A stretch of 64,000 nt of DNA from Octopus vulgaris (Eukaryota). Shown here piece by piece: positions 18,001 through 51,000 of the stretch (position 1 is its first letter; the number at the start of each line of letters is the position of its first letter). Made by a program: the position numbers. The stretch is from positions 10,974,001-11,038,000 of the forward strand of contig OX597837.1 of assembly GCA_951406725.2 (NCBI GenBank), in the 5' to 3' direction.

Positions 18001-21000
18001 GACCAGAGTCCCAAACAGCCGGTCGAGATCGGCCTCAAGGCCGCAGTGACGGACAATGAACTCAGTGATGTATCATCACAACCCTCGGTGGGGTCAGAAT
18101 TCTCCTTGCTCAATGAAGATTCCTTAGAGGTCAATGAAAGCTGAATCAAGGTTTTCAGACCACTCCTGTGACAGGGAGCAAAGGGCGGTGTGCTTGGTTA
18201 AAGATTTCTAAACCAATAAGACCCATCTTTTTGTTCCTTTCATTGCTTGGACTTATTTTAAAACAGAGAAATGATAATTTATTGATATGATCCAGTATAT
18301 TACTGGTATGTATGAACTCTGGGAAAGAAAAAAAGAAAAAGACAAAACACTAACTAAAATCAACCCTCTTTTGATAGGGATTTGAAAACAGAGATGTGAA
18401 GGATTAAATCAGGGTGCAATAAAATATTTTACCTGACACAACACATTAAAGATCTCACACAACTACCACCACTACAACACATACTACAATTTGCACAACC
18501 CACAGGTAAAACAGTCACTACACATCAAGATAACCCAACTACGCAAGCACCATACAACACTAAAAGACAACTCACAACACACAAAACTAAAAATATTGCA
18601 ACAAAATAACACAACTCTCGTTTTTTTACCTGTTCCAGTCGACTGCGGCCATGCTGGAGCACCACCTTTAGTTGAGCAAATTGATCCCAGGACTTATTCT
18701 ATCGATCTCTAAGTTACAGGGACGTAAACACACCAACATCGGTTGTCAGACACACACACACACAACAGGCTTCTTTCAGTTTCCCTCTACCAAATCCACT
18801 CACAAGGCTTTGGTCGGCCCAAAGCTATAGTAGAAGACACTTGCCCAAGGTGCCACGCAGTGGGACTGAACCTGGAACCATGTGGTTGGGAAGCAAGCTT
18901 CCTACCACACAGCCACTTCTGATACAATCTACACGACTCACATTGCATATAATCTCATCATCGTGGAGGCGCAATGGCCCAGTGGTTAGGGCAGCGGACT
19001 CGCAGTCGTAGGATCGCGGTTTCGATTCCCAGACCGGGCGTTGTGAGTGTTTATTGAGTGAAAACACCTAAAGCTCCACGAGGCTCCGGCAGGGGATGGT
19101 GGTGATCCCTGCTGTACTCTTTCACCACAACTTTCTCTCACTCTTACTTCCTGTTTCTGTTGTACCTGTATTTCAAAGGGCCGGCCTTGTCACTCTCTGT
19201 GTCACGCTGAATATCCCCGAGAACTACGTTAAGGGTACACGTGTCTGTGGAGTGCTCAGCCACTTACACGTTAATTTTACGAGCAGGCTGTTCCATTGAT
19301 TCGGATCAACCGGAACCCTCGTCGTTGTAACCGACGGAGTGCTTCCATTCCAATCTCATCATCGTACATTACACGAGGAAAACTAAAATATCACAACAAA
19401 ATAACACAACTCATATTGTATATAATCTATACAACCCACATTTCATACTATATACACCACACAACTCACATTGCATACAATCTATGCAGCAAAACAAAAA
19501 TACCAGAAACAACAAAACAAACAAAAAGCAAATTAAATGTCAACGTAAGGCAGCAAGCTGGCAGAAACGTTAGCATGCCGGCCAAGGAGTGGCTGTGTGG
19601 TAAGTAGCTTGCTTACCAACCACATGGTCCCGGGTTCAGTCCCACTGCGTGGCATCTTGGGCAAGTGTCTTCTACTATAGCCTCAGGCCGACCAAAGCCT
19701 TGTGAGTGGATTTGGTAGACGGAAACTGAATGAAGTTCATCGTATATATATATATATATATATATATATATATGTGCGTGTTTGTCCCTCTAGCATTGCT
19801 TGACAACCGATGCTGGTGTGTTTATGTCCCCGTTACTTAGCGGTTCAGCAAAAGAGAAGTATAGAATAAGAACTGGGCTTACAAAGAATAAGTCCCGAGG
19901 TCAAGTTGCTCGACTAAAGGTGGTGCTCCAGCATGGCTGCAGTCAAATGACTGAAACAAGTAAAAGAGAGAGAGAGAGTAAGGTATTTCGTTTGACCTCA
20001 TGCTTTCATTGAGATAGGAGTGGCTGTGTGGTAAGTAGCTTGCTTACAAACCACATTGTTCCAGGTTCAATCCCACTGCATGGCACCTTGGGCAAGTGTC
20101 TTCTGCTATAGCCTCTCCAAAGAGCTGCGCCGAATCGTCTCATTCCAAATCCTGATCTACATCCCCAAAAGACTAAACTGTACCCTGTGCAGGAACATGC
20201 AAGCACTGCACCCTCAGCTCATGCAGTAAAAACTCACACGAATCTGTTGAAATCATGATTAAAACATCAGAAACCTGTATATTTTCACTTATCAAATATA
20301 TTGTTTTATATATCTCAGCCTTTTTTTTTTTTCTAGGGTTTCTAAGGAGTGGTTTTGAGGGTTTTAGCACTCACATTATTTCTTGTGCTCTGTGGTTGTC
20401 AATTTTATTGTTGTTTAGCCAAGGTCAGCCCTGATGAAACACACAACCAAAAGAGTTCTGGCGGTGGTAGCATCCTGTCTTTTATTCAGACATGGCATGG
20501 TGTATATTAAGGACTTCATTATCCATTATCCAATGGTACATTTCTTTTTTTTTATTTTCATCAGGACACGATGCAGGATTTGAAGGCTATTTGACTGCTG
20601 TTTCTTTCATGCTGAGCAACCACATAGTGGCTCCCTCATTTTGGTTATCAGCAGCAGAGAGTTCCACCGTCAACCATATGTAGTGACCCAGTTGTGGAGT
20701 TAGCTTTGTCGCTCAGGAGAAATATTATGGAATGCACAACATCTTCCACTTCTGGAAATATAAGAAAGGAAAGAAAAGTTAAAAAGAAATACTTTGATAT
20801 CGCAATTCTTTCTATTATAAGCACAAGGCCTGGTATTTGGGGGAGGGTGGGTGGGCTAGTCGATTACATCGATCCCCAGTATGCAACTGGTACTGAATTT
20901 ATCAACTCCAAAAAGATGAAAGGTAAAGTCAACCTTGGTGGAATTTGAGCTCAGAACGTAGGAATGGGTGAAAGCATTTCATCCAACAGGCTAACAATTC

Positions 21001-48000: not shown

Positions 48001-51000
48001 TATATATATGTCTATACATATATAGTTTTTATTAAAGCAGCAAAATTATCACAGAACTGTTATTCAGAATTTCACGTTCCTGTTTGTTAGACGGGCTTCT
48101 TTCAGTTTCCGTCTACCAAATCCACTCACAAGGCTTTGGCTGGCCTGAAGCTATCGTAGAAGACACTTGCCCAAGGTGCCACACAGTGGGACTGAACCTG
48201 GAACCATGTGGTTGGGAAGCAAAATTCCTACCACACAGCCACGCCTGCATCTGCACTATTTTTAGCAGACCAAGAGCCTCCCCTAGCAGCCTCCTTAACA
48301 ATGGCTCATGTTGCTAAGGGTTACTGTCAACATTAACCTGGCACAAACTTCATGGACAGCATTCAATGCTACCACCAAATGCTACCCTTCCAAATGTGGC
48401 TGTCCAAGAAGAATCACTGTATCGATACAAAATGCATGCTTACTTCTTCAACTAACGTCTTCAGGTGTTCCTCAGTGCGACTCAGGGCGTAAGTTGTTGC
48501 ACCACACTTTGATAGCATCTTTGCTGTTTCTCGACCGATTCCTTAGACAAAAAAAGAAAAAAACAAAAAGGTTAAAAAAACATATCAACAATAATTAACA
48601 AAAAATGGCAAAAGATTATTTGACACTGATGGAGTTGTAGTGGTGACCTCGTCTTGGTTGTTAATGTCATAATGTCGACCAAAGCCTTGTGATTAAATTC
48701 GGTAGATGGAAACTGTGTGGAAACCTGTTGTGTGTGTATTTCTTTCTTTCTTTTACTTGTTTCAGTCATTTGACTGCGGCCATGCTGGAGCACCGCCTTT
48801 AGTCGAGCAAATCGACACCAGGACTTATTCTTTTGTAAGCCTAGTACTTATTCTATCGGGTCTTTTGCTGAACCGCTAAGTGACGGGGACGTAAACATAC
48901 CACCATCGGTTGTCAAGCAATGCTAGGGGGACAAACACAGACACACAAACACACACATATACATACATATATACGACAGGCTTCTTTCAGTTTCCGTCTA
49001 CCAAATCCACTCACAAGGCATTGGTCGGCCCGGGGCTATAGCAGAAGACACTTGCCCAAGATGCCACGCAGTGTGACTGAACCCGGAACCATGTGGTCAG
49101 TAAACAAGCTACTTACCACACAGCCACTCCTGCGCCTATATGTGTGTGTGTGTGTGTGTATGGATCTTTTAACTTGTTTCAGTCATTGGACTGTGGCCAT
49201 GCTGGGGCACTGCTTTCAAGGGTTTCAGCCAAATAGTTCAACCCCCAGTACTTGCTTTCAAAGCCTGGTACTTATTCTATTGGTTCTCTATTGCTGAACT
49301 GCAAAGTCATGGAGGATGCAAACAAACCAACACTGGTTGTTAAGTGGTGAGGAGGACAACCACAATCACAAAGACAGACAGACACACACACACACACACA
49401 CACACATACATACATGTAAAGAGCTTCCACACAGTTTCAGGCAAATTTAGGTGATGAGGATAGTCGATTACAACGACCCCAGTGCGTAACTGGTACTTAA
49501 TTTATCGACCCCGAAAGGATGAAAGGCAAAGTTGACCTCGGCGGACTTTGAACTCAGGAAGTAACGGCAGACGAAATACCGCTAAGCATTTCGCCGGCGT
49601 GCTAACGTTTCTGCCAGCTCGCCGCTAAAGTGAAGTTCAAATAAATAGTGGGTGTGTTAATTGGCAAAAAAACGACCCCAAATATATAAAGTTTAAATTA
49701 TATTTGTGCTTTAGTTAAACAAACACCGTGAGGGCACCGTCGATATAAAAACGTATCGTGGGCCACGGCAGAAAAATAAAATATTGCGCTTCACTTGTAT
49801 ATGTATATATGAGCTAATATTTGTTACAAGACGAGGAACAAAGAAATATATTAACATATTAAGAAATATATAAATAAAAAGACAGACTTCATGGTATTAG
49901 GAGACCTAGTTTTAAAACTAAGGCAGTATTACTGTTTTTAGTACAACTGAACTAGTGCAGGCCTATCATGAGACATTCGAAGCGTGACAATCACGACGAT
50001 TATTATTTTTTAGATACACTGTATTCTACAAGACGATGGGGCGTGACTTGAGGGAGCTTTATTGGCTATTTCTAGGGCGTCCGGTGTGCACGATCAAAGG
50101 AATCAGCAAAAATTAAATTAAAAACACCCAAATAAAGTTATAAATAGATTTTCCAGAATAGAAATTACCTCGTCCCGCTCCAGTTACCAAAGCTTTCTGA
50201 CCGTTGAACTTAATTTCCATTTCTTTGCCTTTTTTAGCACTAATTAAATAAAACTCGGTCGGGCGGAATGAAAGTTCTCGCTAATTAAACATCAGCTGCG
50301 ATAAGATTCGGGAGTTATCTCCCTTCTACTAACCCCAAAACAACTACTTCTTCTTCTCCTCTTCCTCCTCCTCCTCCCTTCCCCATCCTCCCCTTTCCTT
50401 CTCCTTCGCCTACTCCTCCTTCTTCTTCTTCTCTCCCTCCTCCCCATTTCCTTCTTCTTCAGCCATAGGACCGTGGCCATGCTGGGGCACCGCTTTGAGG
50501 AGTTTTTTTTTAGCTGAACAAATCGATATCCGAGTACTGACTGTGTGGTAAGAAGCTTGCTTCCCAACAACATGGTTCCAGGTTCAGTCCCACTGCGTGG
50601 CATCTTGGGCAAGTGTCTTCTACAATAGCCCCGGGCCGACCAATGCCTTGTGAGTGGATTTCGTAGACAGAAACTGAAAGAAGCCCGTCGTATATGTATG
50701 TATAATAATAATATTAGGGAGTAAATCCAAACTTATAGGGATAAATTAGATTTAGGATTAAATCTAATTTTATAGTATAAATATATATATATACAATTGC
50801 AGCGTGGAAGGTGTTTATAAGCCATTTAAGAAACACACAAAAGCCGTTCGATTCACTTCAACATTTAAGTTTAATTTGTCAAAATATTTTCGTCGCTAAA
50901 ATCCGCGACCTGTTCACTGACAAAAATCTGTGCTGCATCTGTCAGATTTTAGCGACGAAAATATTTTGACAAATTAAACTTAAATGTTGAAGTGAATCGA

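What the first reader, a model, noticed from the sequence alone, without database searches (positions are those of the whole stretch)
19586..50571. A complete DCXR gene nested antisense inside an intron of its own intact paralog
Seen: the exon order is B7-B6 (minus), then A1-A7 (plus), then B5-B1 (minus). Both sets have 7 exons of identical sizes (52/98/155/43/165/118/104 nt), intact GT-AG sites, 244-aa ORFs and the SDR catalytic S/Y/K. Copy B can only be expressed by splicing a 16.2-kb intron 5 that contains the whole antisense of copy A. Nested genes are common, but they are usually unrelated to the host; I know of no described case of a gene nested in its own near-identical paralog. The introns carry different TE insertions in A and B, which argues against a trivially duplicated contig.
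Basis: partly seen in the sequence, partly recalled or inferred. Interest (0 to 1): 0.9.

Follow-up and report, generated by a model that had tools for sequence, protein, structure and literature searches.

The report
Octopus DCXR gene nested in paralog
Two intact copies of an octopus sugar-reductase gene lie so that one sits backwards inside an intron of the other, most likely the product of one inverted duplication, which makes it a tidy natural case for studying how such gene pairs arise and interfere with each other.

Summary
The window has 14 DCXR (L-xylulose reductase) exons. Copy A is on the + strand (28018-39926). Copy B is on the - strand (50220-20648). Exon sizes are identical (52/98/155/43/165/118/104), and all 12 introns are GT-AG. 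All of A lies in B's 16,236-nt intron 5.

The seven B exon peptides match a public 244-aa Octopus vulgaris protein exactly and in order, so the exon 5-6 join is already annotated.

A and B differ at 4.2% of aligned non-coding sites and by kb-scale repeat insertions. There are no N runs. Haplotype or fold-back artefacts are therefore unlikely, but no reads could be checked.

The layout is [5' block][inverted whole unit][3' block] with two junctions. One junction has 3-nt microhomology. A single inverted duplication or staggered-break micro-inversion would give this.

The 14 amino-acid differences cluster around the catalytic Ser/Tyr/Lys and are mostly derived in B. This favours active-site divergence over decay, although overall dN/dS is about 1.

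Expression, long-read support and other octopus genomes stayed unchecked. It is a real, unusual variant of known phenomena.

The parts
28018..28069 (+). Copy A exon 1 (ATG, 52 nt)
   Evidence: identical to B exon 1
30047..30144 (+). Copy A exon 2 (98 nt)
   Evidence: Pfam adh_short positions 12-43
30975..31129 (+). Copy A exon 3 (155 nt, NNAAV motif)
31817..31859 (+). Copy A exon 4 (43 nt)
33944..34108 (+). Copy A exon 5 (165 nt, S136/Y149/K153)
   Evidence: adh_short E 1e-12
38551..38668 (+). Copy A exon 6 (118 nt)
39823..39926 (+). Copy A exon 7 (104 nt including stop)
   Evidence: identical to B exon 7
50169..50220 (-). Copy B exon 1
48444..48541 (-). Copy B exon 2
47209..47363 (-). Copy B exon 3
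45117..45159 (-). Copy B exon 4
41095..41259 (-). Copy B exon 5 (SEVSRM...YCCTK)
24741..24858 (-). Copy B exon 6 ([11 protein letters not shown])
20648..20751 (-). Copy B exon 7 including stop
24859..41094 (-). B intron 5 (16,236 nt), which holds the whole of copy A in antisense
27573..41004 (+). Inverted whole unit (copy A plus 445 nt upstream of its ATG and 1,078 nt downstream of its stop)
   Evidence: homology limits
41002..50571 (-). B 5' block (exons 1-5 plus 93 nt of intron 5), homologous to A 27573-34201
   Evidence: chain 1
19585..24886 (-). B 3' block (28 nt of intron 5, exons 6-7, 3' flank with a SINE-like repeat), homologous to A 38523-41004
   Evidence: chain 2
41002..41004 (.). 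Junction J1: the end of A's 3' flank (5' end of a SINE-like repeat) meets B intron 5; 3-nt overlap CCT
   Evidence: repeat 5' end
27572..27573 (.). Junction J2: B intron 5 sequence meets A's 5' flank. The A copy starts about 39 nt inside the head of the SINE-like repeat that lies upstream of B (50538-50704)
39823..40575 (+). Low-divergence tract (exon 7 plus about 650 nt of 3' flank with three shared AATAAA); partner in B is about 20751-20000
   Evidence: 6 mismatches in 750 aligned nt; perfect runs of 283 and 186 nt; AATAAA positions
34202..38522 (+). Interior of A intron 5 with no clear B counterpart (mostly repeat copies); candidate single-copy middle segment
24887..27572 (.). Exon-6 side of B intron 5: SINE-like copy, a second repeat, two foldback elements, 916 nt without any match in the window

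Best explanation
This is a real pair of young DCXR (dicarbonyl/L-xylulose reductase, classical SDR) paralogs in an Octopus vulgaris-group genome, made by one rearrangement. Read in the sense of gene B, the locus is [5' block: upstream flank to 93 nt into intron 5] + [the whole unit, inverted] + [3' block: intron 5 to the downstream flank]. That is the B.rc(BCD).D pattern. An inversion with staggered breaks gives this pattern, and so does a replicative template switch or the insertion of an inverted copy. All three need only two new junctions. Because the two duplicated blocks together cover the whole gene, the event left two complete genes. The inner one (A) carries only 445 nt of the old upstream sequence. 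The outer one (B) keeps the original flanks and gained an intron 5 that is now 16.2 kb. B can make protein only by splicing across antisense A. After the event both copies gained different repeat insertions. The 3' end was probably homogenised by gene conversion. B took on a burst of amino-acid changes around the active site while the rest of the protein stayed constant. I read that as a change of substrate preference in a working enzyme.

Shown: the anatomy, the junctions, the divergence, and the pattern of substitutions. Inferred: the single-event origin, an age of about 6 My, function of both copies, and gene conversion.
For: Anatomy and intact signals.

Gene identity:
- The exon peptides map in order on the Pfam SDR profiles.
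- P0002 equals the seven B exon peptides and aligns without gaps, 1-244, to human L-xylulose reductase 1pr9 (E 2.4e-85).

Block structure:
- Collinear inverted chains run A 27573-34201 to B 50571-41002, and A 38523-41004 to B 24886-19585.
- J1 has a 3-nt overlap and no long homology.
- J2 is sharp.

Not haplotypes and not a fold-back chimera:
- 247 of 5,881 aligned non-coding sites differ (4.2%), against a reported heterozygosity of 1.22%.
- B-specific insertions are about 1.36, 2.17 and 2.86 kb.
- The window has no N.

Constraint:
- All 12 of 12 splice-site pairs are kept, and three AATAAA sit at the same offsets in both copies.
- The 14 amino-acid differences are clustered. Nine of 13 gaps between them are 5 residues or less, a value reached by 17 of 100,000 permutations. 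Six of 14 lie within 5 residues of S136/Y149/K153, reached by 126 of 100,000.
- Exons 1, 2 and 7 (254 nt) have 2 differences, both synonymous.
- At 11 of the 14 differing positions A's residue equals that of O. bimaculoides or Argonauta (one of these, 196, is ambiguous because B also matches an outgroup); B's residue does so at 2 of 14.

Annotation: public records exist for B (244 aa) and for an A isoform.

Model: staggered breaks giving inverted duplications at both ends of an inversion, PMC1885836 (passages read).
Against: No reads, read depth, transcripts or other octopus genomes could be examined, so assembly correctness and B ex5-ex6 splicing are not shown. A predicted protein record may rest on homology alone.

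Overall dN/dS is about 1.2: Sd 4 and Nd 15, counted by hand from the codon list, over S 170.7 and N 552.3 sites. The number of B-derived replacements (10-12) is close to what a neutrally drifting copy would collect at 4.2% divergence. Counts alone therefore do not exclude decay of B.

The clusters could also come from short conversion tracts donated by an unseen third paralog.

No full-length A protein was among the hits. The best hit to A exon 3 was P0002 at 94%.

The interiors of the two intron-5 remnants share only repeat copies. The single-copy middle segment, and so the choice between a staggered inversion and a plain inverted insertion, cannot be settled. The second parent of J2 is unknown.
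Confidence: 0.7

Rival explanations
1. Assembly artefact: two real paralogs exist, but their pieces were joined in the wrong order or orientation, for example at repeat copies, so the nesting is not in the animal.
For: The region is packed with a roughly 400-nt SINE-like repeat: 30 hits of 90 nt or more in the window. J1 lies exactly at the end of one copy. The published O. vulgaris assembly was built from 27.5x Nanopore R9.4.1 reads with linked-read and Omni-C scaffolding, and I could not see reads. Whether the window comes from that assembly is not known.
Against: There is no N in 64 kb, so there is no scaffold join. At J1 the sequence passes from the repeat into single-copy intron sequence. 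It does not switch inside a shared repeat. Moving B6-B7 from a simple tail-to-tail pair would need three wrong joins. B lacks its own copy of A's intron-5 interior, which fits a rearranged single locus better than two full genes shuffled. The repeat copies are only 85-94% alike, which long reads resolve easily. The 4.2% divergence excludes a fold-back read chimera and haplotigs.
Confidence: 0.08
2. The arrangement is real, but B is a relic. After being split by 16 kb of antisense gene it is not productively spliced or is drifting, and only A does the work.
For: Replacements are concentrated in B (10-11 positions against 1-2 in A). Their number is near the neutral expectation. Overall dN/dS is about 1.2 (derived). 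A head-on nested gene is expected to interfere with host transcription; the abstract of PMC3192792 in the listing reports intron retention and cryptic polyadenylation caused by nested genes.
Against: B keeps an open 244-codon frame, 6 of 6 GT-AG introns and its AATAAA signals. Its changes are not spread randomly but sit in four patches around the catalytic residues. Outside those patches the 645 exon nucleotides show 2 differences, against 4.2% in non-coding sequence, although the patches were defined after seeing the data.
Confidence: 0.25
3. Multi-step origin: an ordinary tandem or inverted duplication came first, and later independent rearrangements or transposition moved one copy into the other's intron.
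For: The intron-5 interiors do not align, so extra events there cannot be excluded. The region has many mobile elements, including a nearly intact LINE at 52058-55303 and foldback elements.
Against: Only two novel junctions are seen, and the homology limits of A and B coincide at both outer ends. Inversions by recombination between the two copies' introns, starting from head-to-head, tail-to-tail or direct tandem pairs, do not give this order and orientation (worked through by reasoning, not by a tool). Divergence is similar in the 5' and 3' blocks, 3-7% per 150-nt bin outside the conversion tract.
Confidence: 0.12

Closest known systems
Inversions with staggered breaks that leave inverted duplications at both breakpoints (Drosophila melanogaster group; Ranz et al. 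2007, PMC1885836, passages read)
   Same: The pattern is block, inverted (block-middle-block), block. The duplicates are of formerly single-copy genic sequence, and the junction has no long homology (J1, 3 nt).
   Different: In D. yakuba the duplicated pieces reached at most about 1.9 kb of aligned sequence, and most were presumed non-functional. Here the blocks are 6.6-9.6 kb and 2.5-5.3 kb. The inverted single-copy core is at most about 2.7 kb and may be nil. Together the two blocks rebuild two complete genes, one inside the other. The ancestral orientation could not be checked.
Ordinary nested (intronic) genes, e.g. 2mit in intron 11 of Drosophila tim2 (PMC3786989, abstract in the listing)
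   Same: A complete gene lies inside one intron of a host gene on the opposite strand.
   Different: Host and guest are paralogs, 94% identical in protein and born in the same event. The host pre-mRNA therefore carries the reverse complement of its own exons.
[quoted passage not shown]
   Same: 244 residues, a gapless end-to-end alignment with the B protein record (E 2.4e-85), and the same S136/Y149/K153, TGxxxGxG and NNAAV motifs.
   Different: This is an invertebrate ortholog present as two copies. The copies differ at 14 residues, mostly next to the catalytic residues. Their substrates are untested.
Replicative inverted duplications (fold-back or template-switch events; PMC10622511, title and abstract in the listing)
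   Same: An inverted copy is joined by short microhomology.
   Different: There is no terminal fold-back or spacer-less palindrome. The inverted copy is internal and is flanked on both sides by the original sequence.

Membership tests
DCXR / L-xylulose reductase (classical SDR) | Rossmann cofactor motif TGxxxGxG near the N-terminus | tested here: met
   TGAGR-G-IG across exons 1/2 in both copies, with the split codon reading G
DCXR / L-xylulose reductase (classical SDR) | Catalytic Ser-Tyr-Lys (S136, Y149, K153 in human numbering) and the NNAG-type motif | tested here: met
   NISS...YSSTK in A and NISS...YCCTK in B; NNAAV in both; aligned with the same residues of 1pr9 for P0002
DCXR / L-xylulose reductase (classical SDR) | Best full-length match is DCXR rather than another SDR subfamily | tested here: met
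   P0002 (equal to the B exons): 1pr9 L-xylulose reductase at 289 bits, the next hit 1cyd carbonyl reductase at 256 bits, and the rest at 150 bits or less. A was tested exon by exon only.
DCXR / L-xylulose reductase (classical SDR) | NADPH-dependent reduction of L-xylulose or dicarbonyls | not testable with these tools
   Needs an enzyme assay
Nested (intronic) gene pair | The guest gene lies wholly within one intron of the host | tested here: met
   A 28018-39926 lies inside B intron 5, 24859-41094
Nested (intronic) gene pair | The host is spliced across the guest, and both are expressed | tested here: inconclusive
   Public protein records equal the B exons joined, and A exons 1, 2, 5, 6 plus read-through. 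No transcript data were seen.
Inversion with staggered breaks (inverted duplications at both ends) | Two blocks, each present once direct and once inverted, flanking the inverted part | tested here: met
   Chains
Inversion with staggered breaks (inverted duplications at both ends) | A single-copy middle segment that is inverted relative to the ancestor | tested here: inconclusive
   A 34202-38522 has no clear B counterpart but is mostly repeats. Orientation in an outgroup genome could not be checked.
Inversion with staggered breaks (inverted duplications at both ends) | Junctions made by end joining, not by recombination between long inverted repeats | tested here: met
   J1 has a 3-nt overlap. 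For J2 only one parent is known.
Assembly artefact (haplotig or fold-back chimera) | Copies differ by no more than heterozygosity or are near-identical, with gaps at the joins | tested here: not met
   4.2% non-coding divergence and kb-scale copy-specific insertions, against 1.22% heterozygosity; no N
Assembly artefact (haplotig or fold-back chimera) | Abnormal read depth or no spanning reads | not testable with these tools
   No read data available

The most novel reading that the evidence does not exclude
The nesting is a working regulatory device, not just a scar. Every B pre-mRNA carries, inside intron 5, the reverse complement of its own exons and those of A, with perfect stretches of up to 283 nt. 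Transcription of B therefore makes long double-stranded RNA, both within itself and with A transcripts, and the two genes are transcribed head-on. In an animal with exceptionally active ADAR editing this could couple the two enzymes in two ways. One is mutually exclusive expression through transcriptional collision. The other is ADAR editing or small-RNA silencing of one paralog triggered by the other. The antisense paralog would then serve as a ready-made editing-complementary sequence for all seven exons.
Probability: 0.12. Interest if true: 0.8.

Novelty: new variant of a known kind. Interest (0 to 1): 0.5.

Why it matters
The case shows that a single inverted duplication can create, in one step, two complete genes with one nested antisense in the other. 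Nested genes are usually discussed as unrelated guests that arrived later. The copies are young (about 4% non-coding divergence) and the junctions are still readable, so the mechanism can be reconstructed base by base and tested in sister species. The pair is also a natural experiment on three questions: splicing across an antisense active gene, gene conversion between inverted paralogs, and rapid active-site divergence after duplication. In a cephalopod it also bears on whether built-in long double-stranded RNA is edited.

Tried and rejected
1. The first self-comparisons were swamped by repeats and cut. They were replaced by filtered and chained versions.

2. I looked for homology between the interiors of the two intron-5 remnants with word size 7 and by listing all matches of the unmatched stretches. 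Only repeat copies were shared, so the middle segment stays undefined.

3. Is the repeat a tRNA-derived SINE? ARAGORN found 0 genes in the window. Rfam gave only sub-threshold chance hits on 19400-20200 (6 matches, the best 27 bits against a gathering score of 81). I call it 'SINE-like' from its size and copy number only.

4. The ungapped 100% megablast used to find perfect runs (part) returned mostly repeats. It was replaced by run-length counting on the alignments.

Accession numbers and the second Octopus taxon behind 'n=2 Tax=Octopus' are therefore unverified.

6. The search for a full-length A protein found none at 100%.

7. My first syn/nonsyn tally (2 against 17) scored every change in a replaced codon as nonsynonymous. 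It was corrected to 4 against 15 from the codon list.

8. I considered and rejected recombination between the copies' introns as the origin, starting from head-to-head, tail-to-tail or tandem pairs. None gives this order and orientation.

9. The paper search for DCXR pocket residues gave no usable source among the 10 papers listed. The statement that the segments after the catalytic Ser and around residues 185-205 line the substrate pocket of classical SDRs is from recall.

10. Pfam on 8 other long open frames in the window found nothing.

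
Full report
**The observation.** The window has no N. Peptide anchors, size-constrained AG...GT searches and direct reading located 14 exons.
- Copy A, + strand: 28018-28069, 30047-30144, 30975-31129, 31817-31859, 33944-34108, 38551-38668, 39823-39926.
- Copy B, - strand: 50169-50220, 48444-48541, 47209-47363, 45117-45159, 41095-41259, 24741-24858, 20648-20751.

Both sets measure 52/98/155/43/165/118/104 nt (735 nt). All 12 of 12 introns are GT-AG. The three split codons read G, D and E in both copies, and no exon has an in-frame stop. 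B intron 5 (24859-41094, 16,236 nt) contains all of A. A tblastn of the public protein P0002 against the whole window listed 25 rows. The 14 rows with E <= 0.001 are exactly these exons, and the other 11 have E >= 1.7, so there is no third copy here.

**What the genes are.**
- Ten exon peptides (exons 2, 3, 5, 6 and 7 of each copy) hit the Pfam SDR profiles in collinear order, with exon 5 at E 1e-12 and 2.3e-12.
- B exon 5, searched against longer proteins, found P0002, a 244-aa 'L-xylulose reductase-like [Octopus vulgaris]', at 100% identity. It also found P0004, a 153-aa 'L-xylulose reductase isoform X2 [Octopus vulgaris]', at 89%.
- All 7 of 7 B exon peptides are exact substrings of P0002 at offsets 0, 18, 50, 102, 116, 171 and 211, which means they are contiguous. 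P0004 equals A exons 1, 2, 5 and 6 followed by read-through into intron 6.
- The window is therefore from O. vulgaris or a very close relative, and the B model with the 16.2-kb intron is already in a public annotation.
- P0002 aligns without gaps, 1-244, to human L-xylulose reductase 1pr9 (E 2.4e-85), with S136, Y149 and K153 conserved.
- A exon 3 found no 100% hit. The best was P0002 at 94%, so a full-length A protein was not seen.
- O. bimaculoides (P0006) and Argonauta hians (P0007) each contributed one 244-aa ortholog.

**The duplicated blocks.** Chained inverted self-alignments give two sets of blocks.
- A 27573-34201 aligns with B 50571-41002 (six blocks).
- A 38523-41004 aligns with B 24886-19585.
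- Two further repeat-borne matches extend to B 27025.

Read in B's sense, the locus is [5' block], [whole unit inverted], [3' block].

Junction J1 lies at 41002-41004. Homology to B's 3' flank ends at 41004, which is exactly the 5' end of a SINE-like repeat. Of 30 hits to that repeat of 90 nt or more in the window, 24 start within 8 nt of that end. Homology to A's intron 5 starts at 41002. The overlap is CCT.

Junction J2 lies at 27572/27573. There A's copy begins about 39 nt inside the head of the SINE-like copy that sits upstream of B. Both outer limits of the unit therefore fall in the first 40 nt of two same-orientation repeat copies. This may point to fragile sites, but I did not test that.

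**Real or artefact.**
- Aligned non-coding sequence differs at 247 of 5,881 sites (4.2%; 164 transitions, 83 transversions).
- B carries extra insertions of about 1.36 kb (intron 3), 2.17 kb (intron 4) and 2.86 kb (intron 6). A carries others.
- Reported heterozygosity of O. vulgaris is 1.22%, and the published assembly is based on long reads (passages of PMC10700109).
- These facts argue against haplotigs and fold-back read chimeras.
- The absence of N and the passage from repeat into single-copy sequence at J1 argue against a scaffold or repeat-mediated misjoin.
- I could not see reads, so this remains an argument and not a proof.
- A repeat-based clock in PMC13282606 equates JC 0.065 with 18 My (passages). 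With it, 4.2% pairwise divergence corresponds to roughly 6 My. That is after the split from O. bimaculoides (13-34 My) and before the O. vulgaris/O. sinensis split (2.5 My). This is an inference, and gene conversion would make it an underestimate.

**Coding divergence.**
- The coding sequences differ at 19 of 735 nt, by exon 0/2/5/1/6/5/0, giving 14 amino-acid differences.
- From the codon list I count by hand 4 synonymous and 15 non-synonymous differences over 170.7 and 552.3 sites. That gives pS 0.023, pN 0.027 and a ratio of about 1.2.
- The differences lie at residues 89, 91, 93, 103, 137, 138, 140, 141, 150, 151, 190, 195, 196 and 198.
- At 11 of the 14 positions A's residue equals that of an outgroup. 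One of these (196) is ambiguous, because B also matches an outgroup there. B's residue equals an outgroup at 2 of the 14. B is therefore the fast copy.
- Nine of 13 gaps between differing positions are 5 residues or less. This is reached in 17 of 100,000 permutations. Six of 14 lie within 5 residues of S136, Y149 or K153, reached in 126 of 100,000.
- Exons 1, 2 and 7 carry only 2 synonymous changes.
- The count of changes in B is compatible with neutral drift, but their placement is not. I read this as divergence of the substrate pocket in a constrained enzyme. The rivals are decay of B, or short conversion tracts from an unseen paralog.
- That these segments line the pocket of classical SDRs is recalled knowledge. 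My paper search gave no source.

**Gene conversion.** A 39823-40575 (exon 7 and about 650 nt beyond it) has 6 mismatches in 750 aligned sites, while the neighbouring bins have 4-16 per 150. Perfect runs reach 283 and 186 nt. Either the 3' UTR is strongly constrained in both copies, or this tract was recently converted between the inverted copies.

**Origin.** The layout equals the product of an inversion with two pairs of staggered breaks. In that model the stretches between paired breaks end up duplicated in inverted orientation at both ends (PMC1885836, abstract, the Figure 2 legend and results passages read). A two-step template switch or the insertion of an inverted copy gives the same two junctions. 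The sequence cannot separate these three mechanisms, because the interiors of the intron-5 remnants share only repeats. Recombination between the copies starting from simple tandem or inverted pairs does not yield this order (my reasoning). What is special here is that the two duplicated blocks jointly span the entire gene, so both products are complete.

**Consequences (inferred).** B must be spliced across 16.2 kb that includes an oppositely transcribed gene. Its pre-mRNA carries the reverse complement of its own exons. About 5 kb of aligned sequence lies in the 5' arm and about 2.5 kb in the 3' arm. Head-on transcription and long double-stranded RNA are therefore built in. Nested genes are reported to disturb host transcripts (PMC3192792, abstract in the listing), and coleoids edit RNA heavily (abstracts in the listing). 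Whether any of this happens here is untested.

**Novelty.** Three full-text searches found no described gene nested in its own paralog. The single phrase hit (PMC3906896, passages read) concerned phylogenetically nested duplications. This does not show that no such case is in print.

**Unchecked.** The following stayed unchecked:
- reads and read depth
- transcripts
- enzyme activity

Noticed in passing
window 52058-55303 (+): A non-LTR retrotransposon reading frame lies about 1.5 kb beyond B's upstream limit. It has an endonuclease domain (Exo_endo_phos, E 9.8e-09) and a reverse transcriptase (RVT_1, E 3.8e-29) in the same frame, separated by one stop at 53144-53146. The region is richer in G+C (0.48-0.51).
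   Followed up: partly
window, 30 places (e.g. 19585-19982, 21601-22002, 23390-23789, 29441-29839, 33451-33838, 40600-41004, 47626-48000, 61108-61503): A SINE-like repeat of about 400 nt gives 30 hits of 90 nt or more at 66-92% identity, and 24 of them share the same 5' end. Neither ARAGORN (0 genes) nor Rfam sees a tRNA-like head.
   Followed up: partly
window 19585 and 50533-50571: Both outer limits of the duplicated unit fall within the first 40 nt of two same-orientation copies of that repeat. This is a possible breakage hotspot.
   Followed up: no
window 23799-24087, 25573-25815, 26758-27306, 50793-51055, 51173-51633: Foldback (self-inverted) elements of 240-550 nt at 84-93% arm identity. 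Some are related to each other and to single arms at 25808-26107, 36861-37163 and 44051-44256. They look like mobile foldback or MITE-like elements.
   Followed up: no
window 38669-38830 (+): A 54-nt unit is repeated 3.0 times (98% matches) at the very start of A's intron 6, beginning with the donor GT. B appears to have fewer copies, because the A/B alignment there has 69 gap columns.
   Followed up: no
window 242-407, 13846-14842, 43534-44030, 46281-46560, 59213-59901, 62005-62655: Large AT-rich microsatellite or minisatellite arrays, e.g. a 32-nt unit x 31.7 and (ATT)n x 217. They cross-match each other. One array lies inside the B-specific insertion of intron 4.
   Followed up: no
copy A, exons 1, 2, 5, 6 and intron 6 start (28018-38700): The public record P0004 ('isoform X2', 153 aa) skips A exons 3-4 in frame, which removes the NNAAV motif, and reads through the exon 6 donor into intron 6, ending ...GLLKSFFVF. 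It would not be a complete SDR.
   Followed up: partly
coding differences, exons 3, 5, 6: Counted by hand's codon list, about 10 of the 17 nucleotide changes in replaced codons are transversions, six of them C/G. Non-coding differences are 164 transitions to 83 transversions.
   Followed up: no
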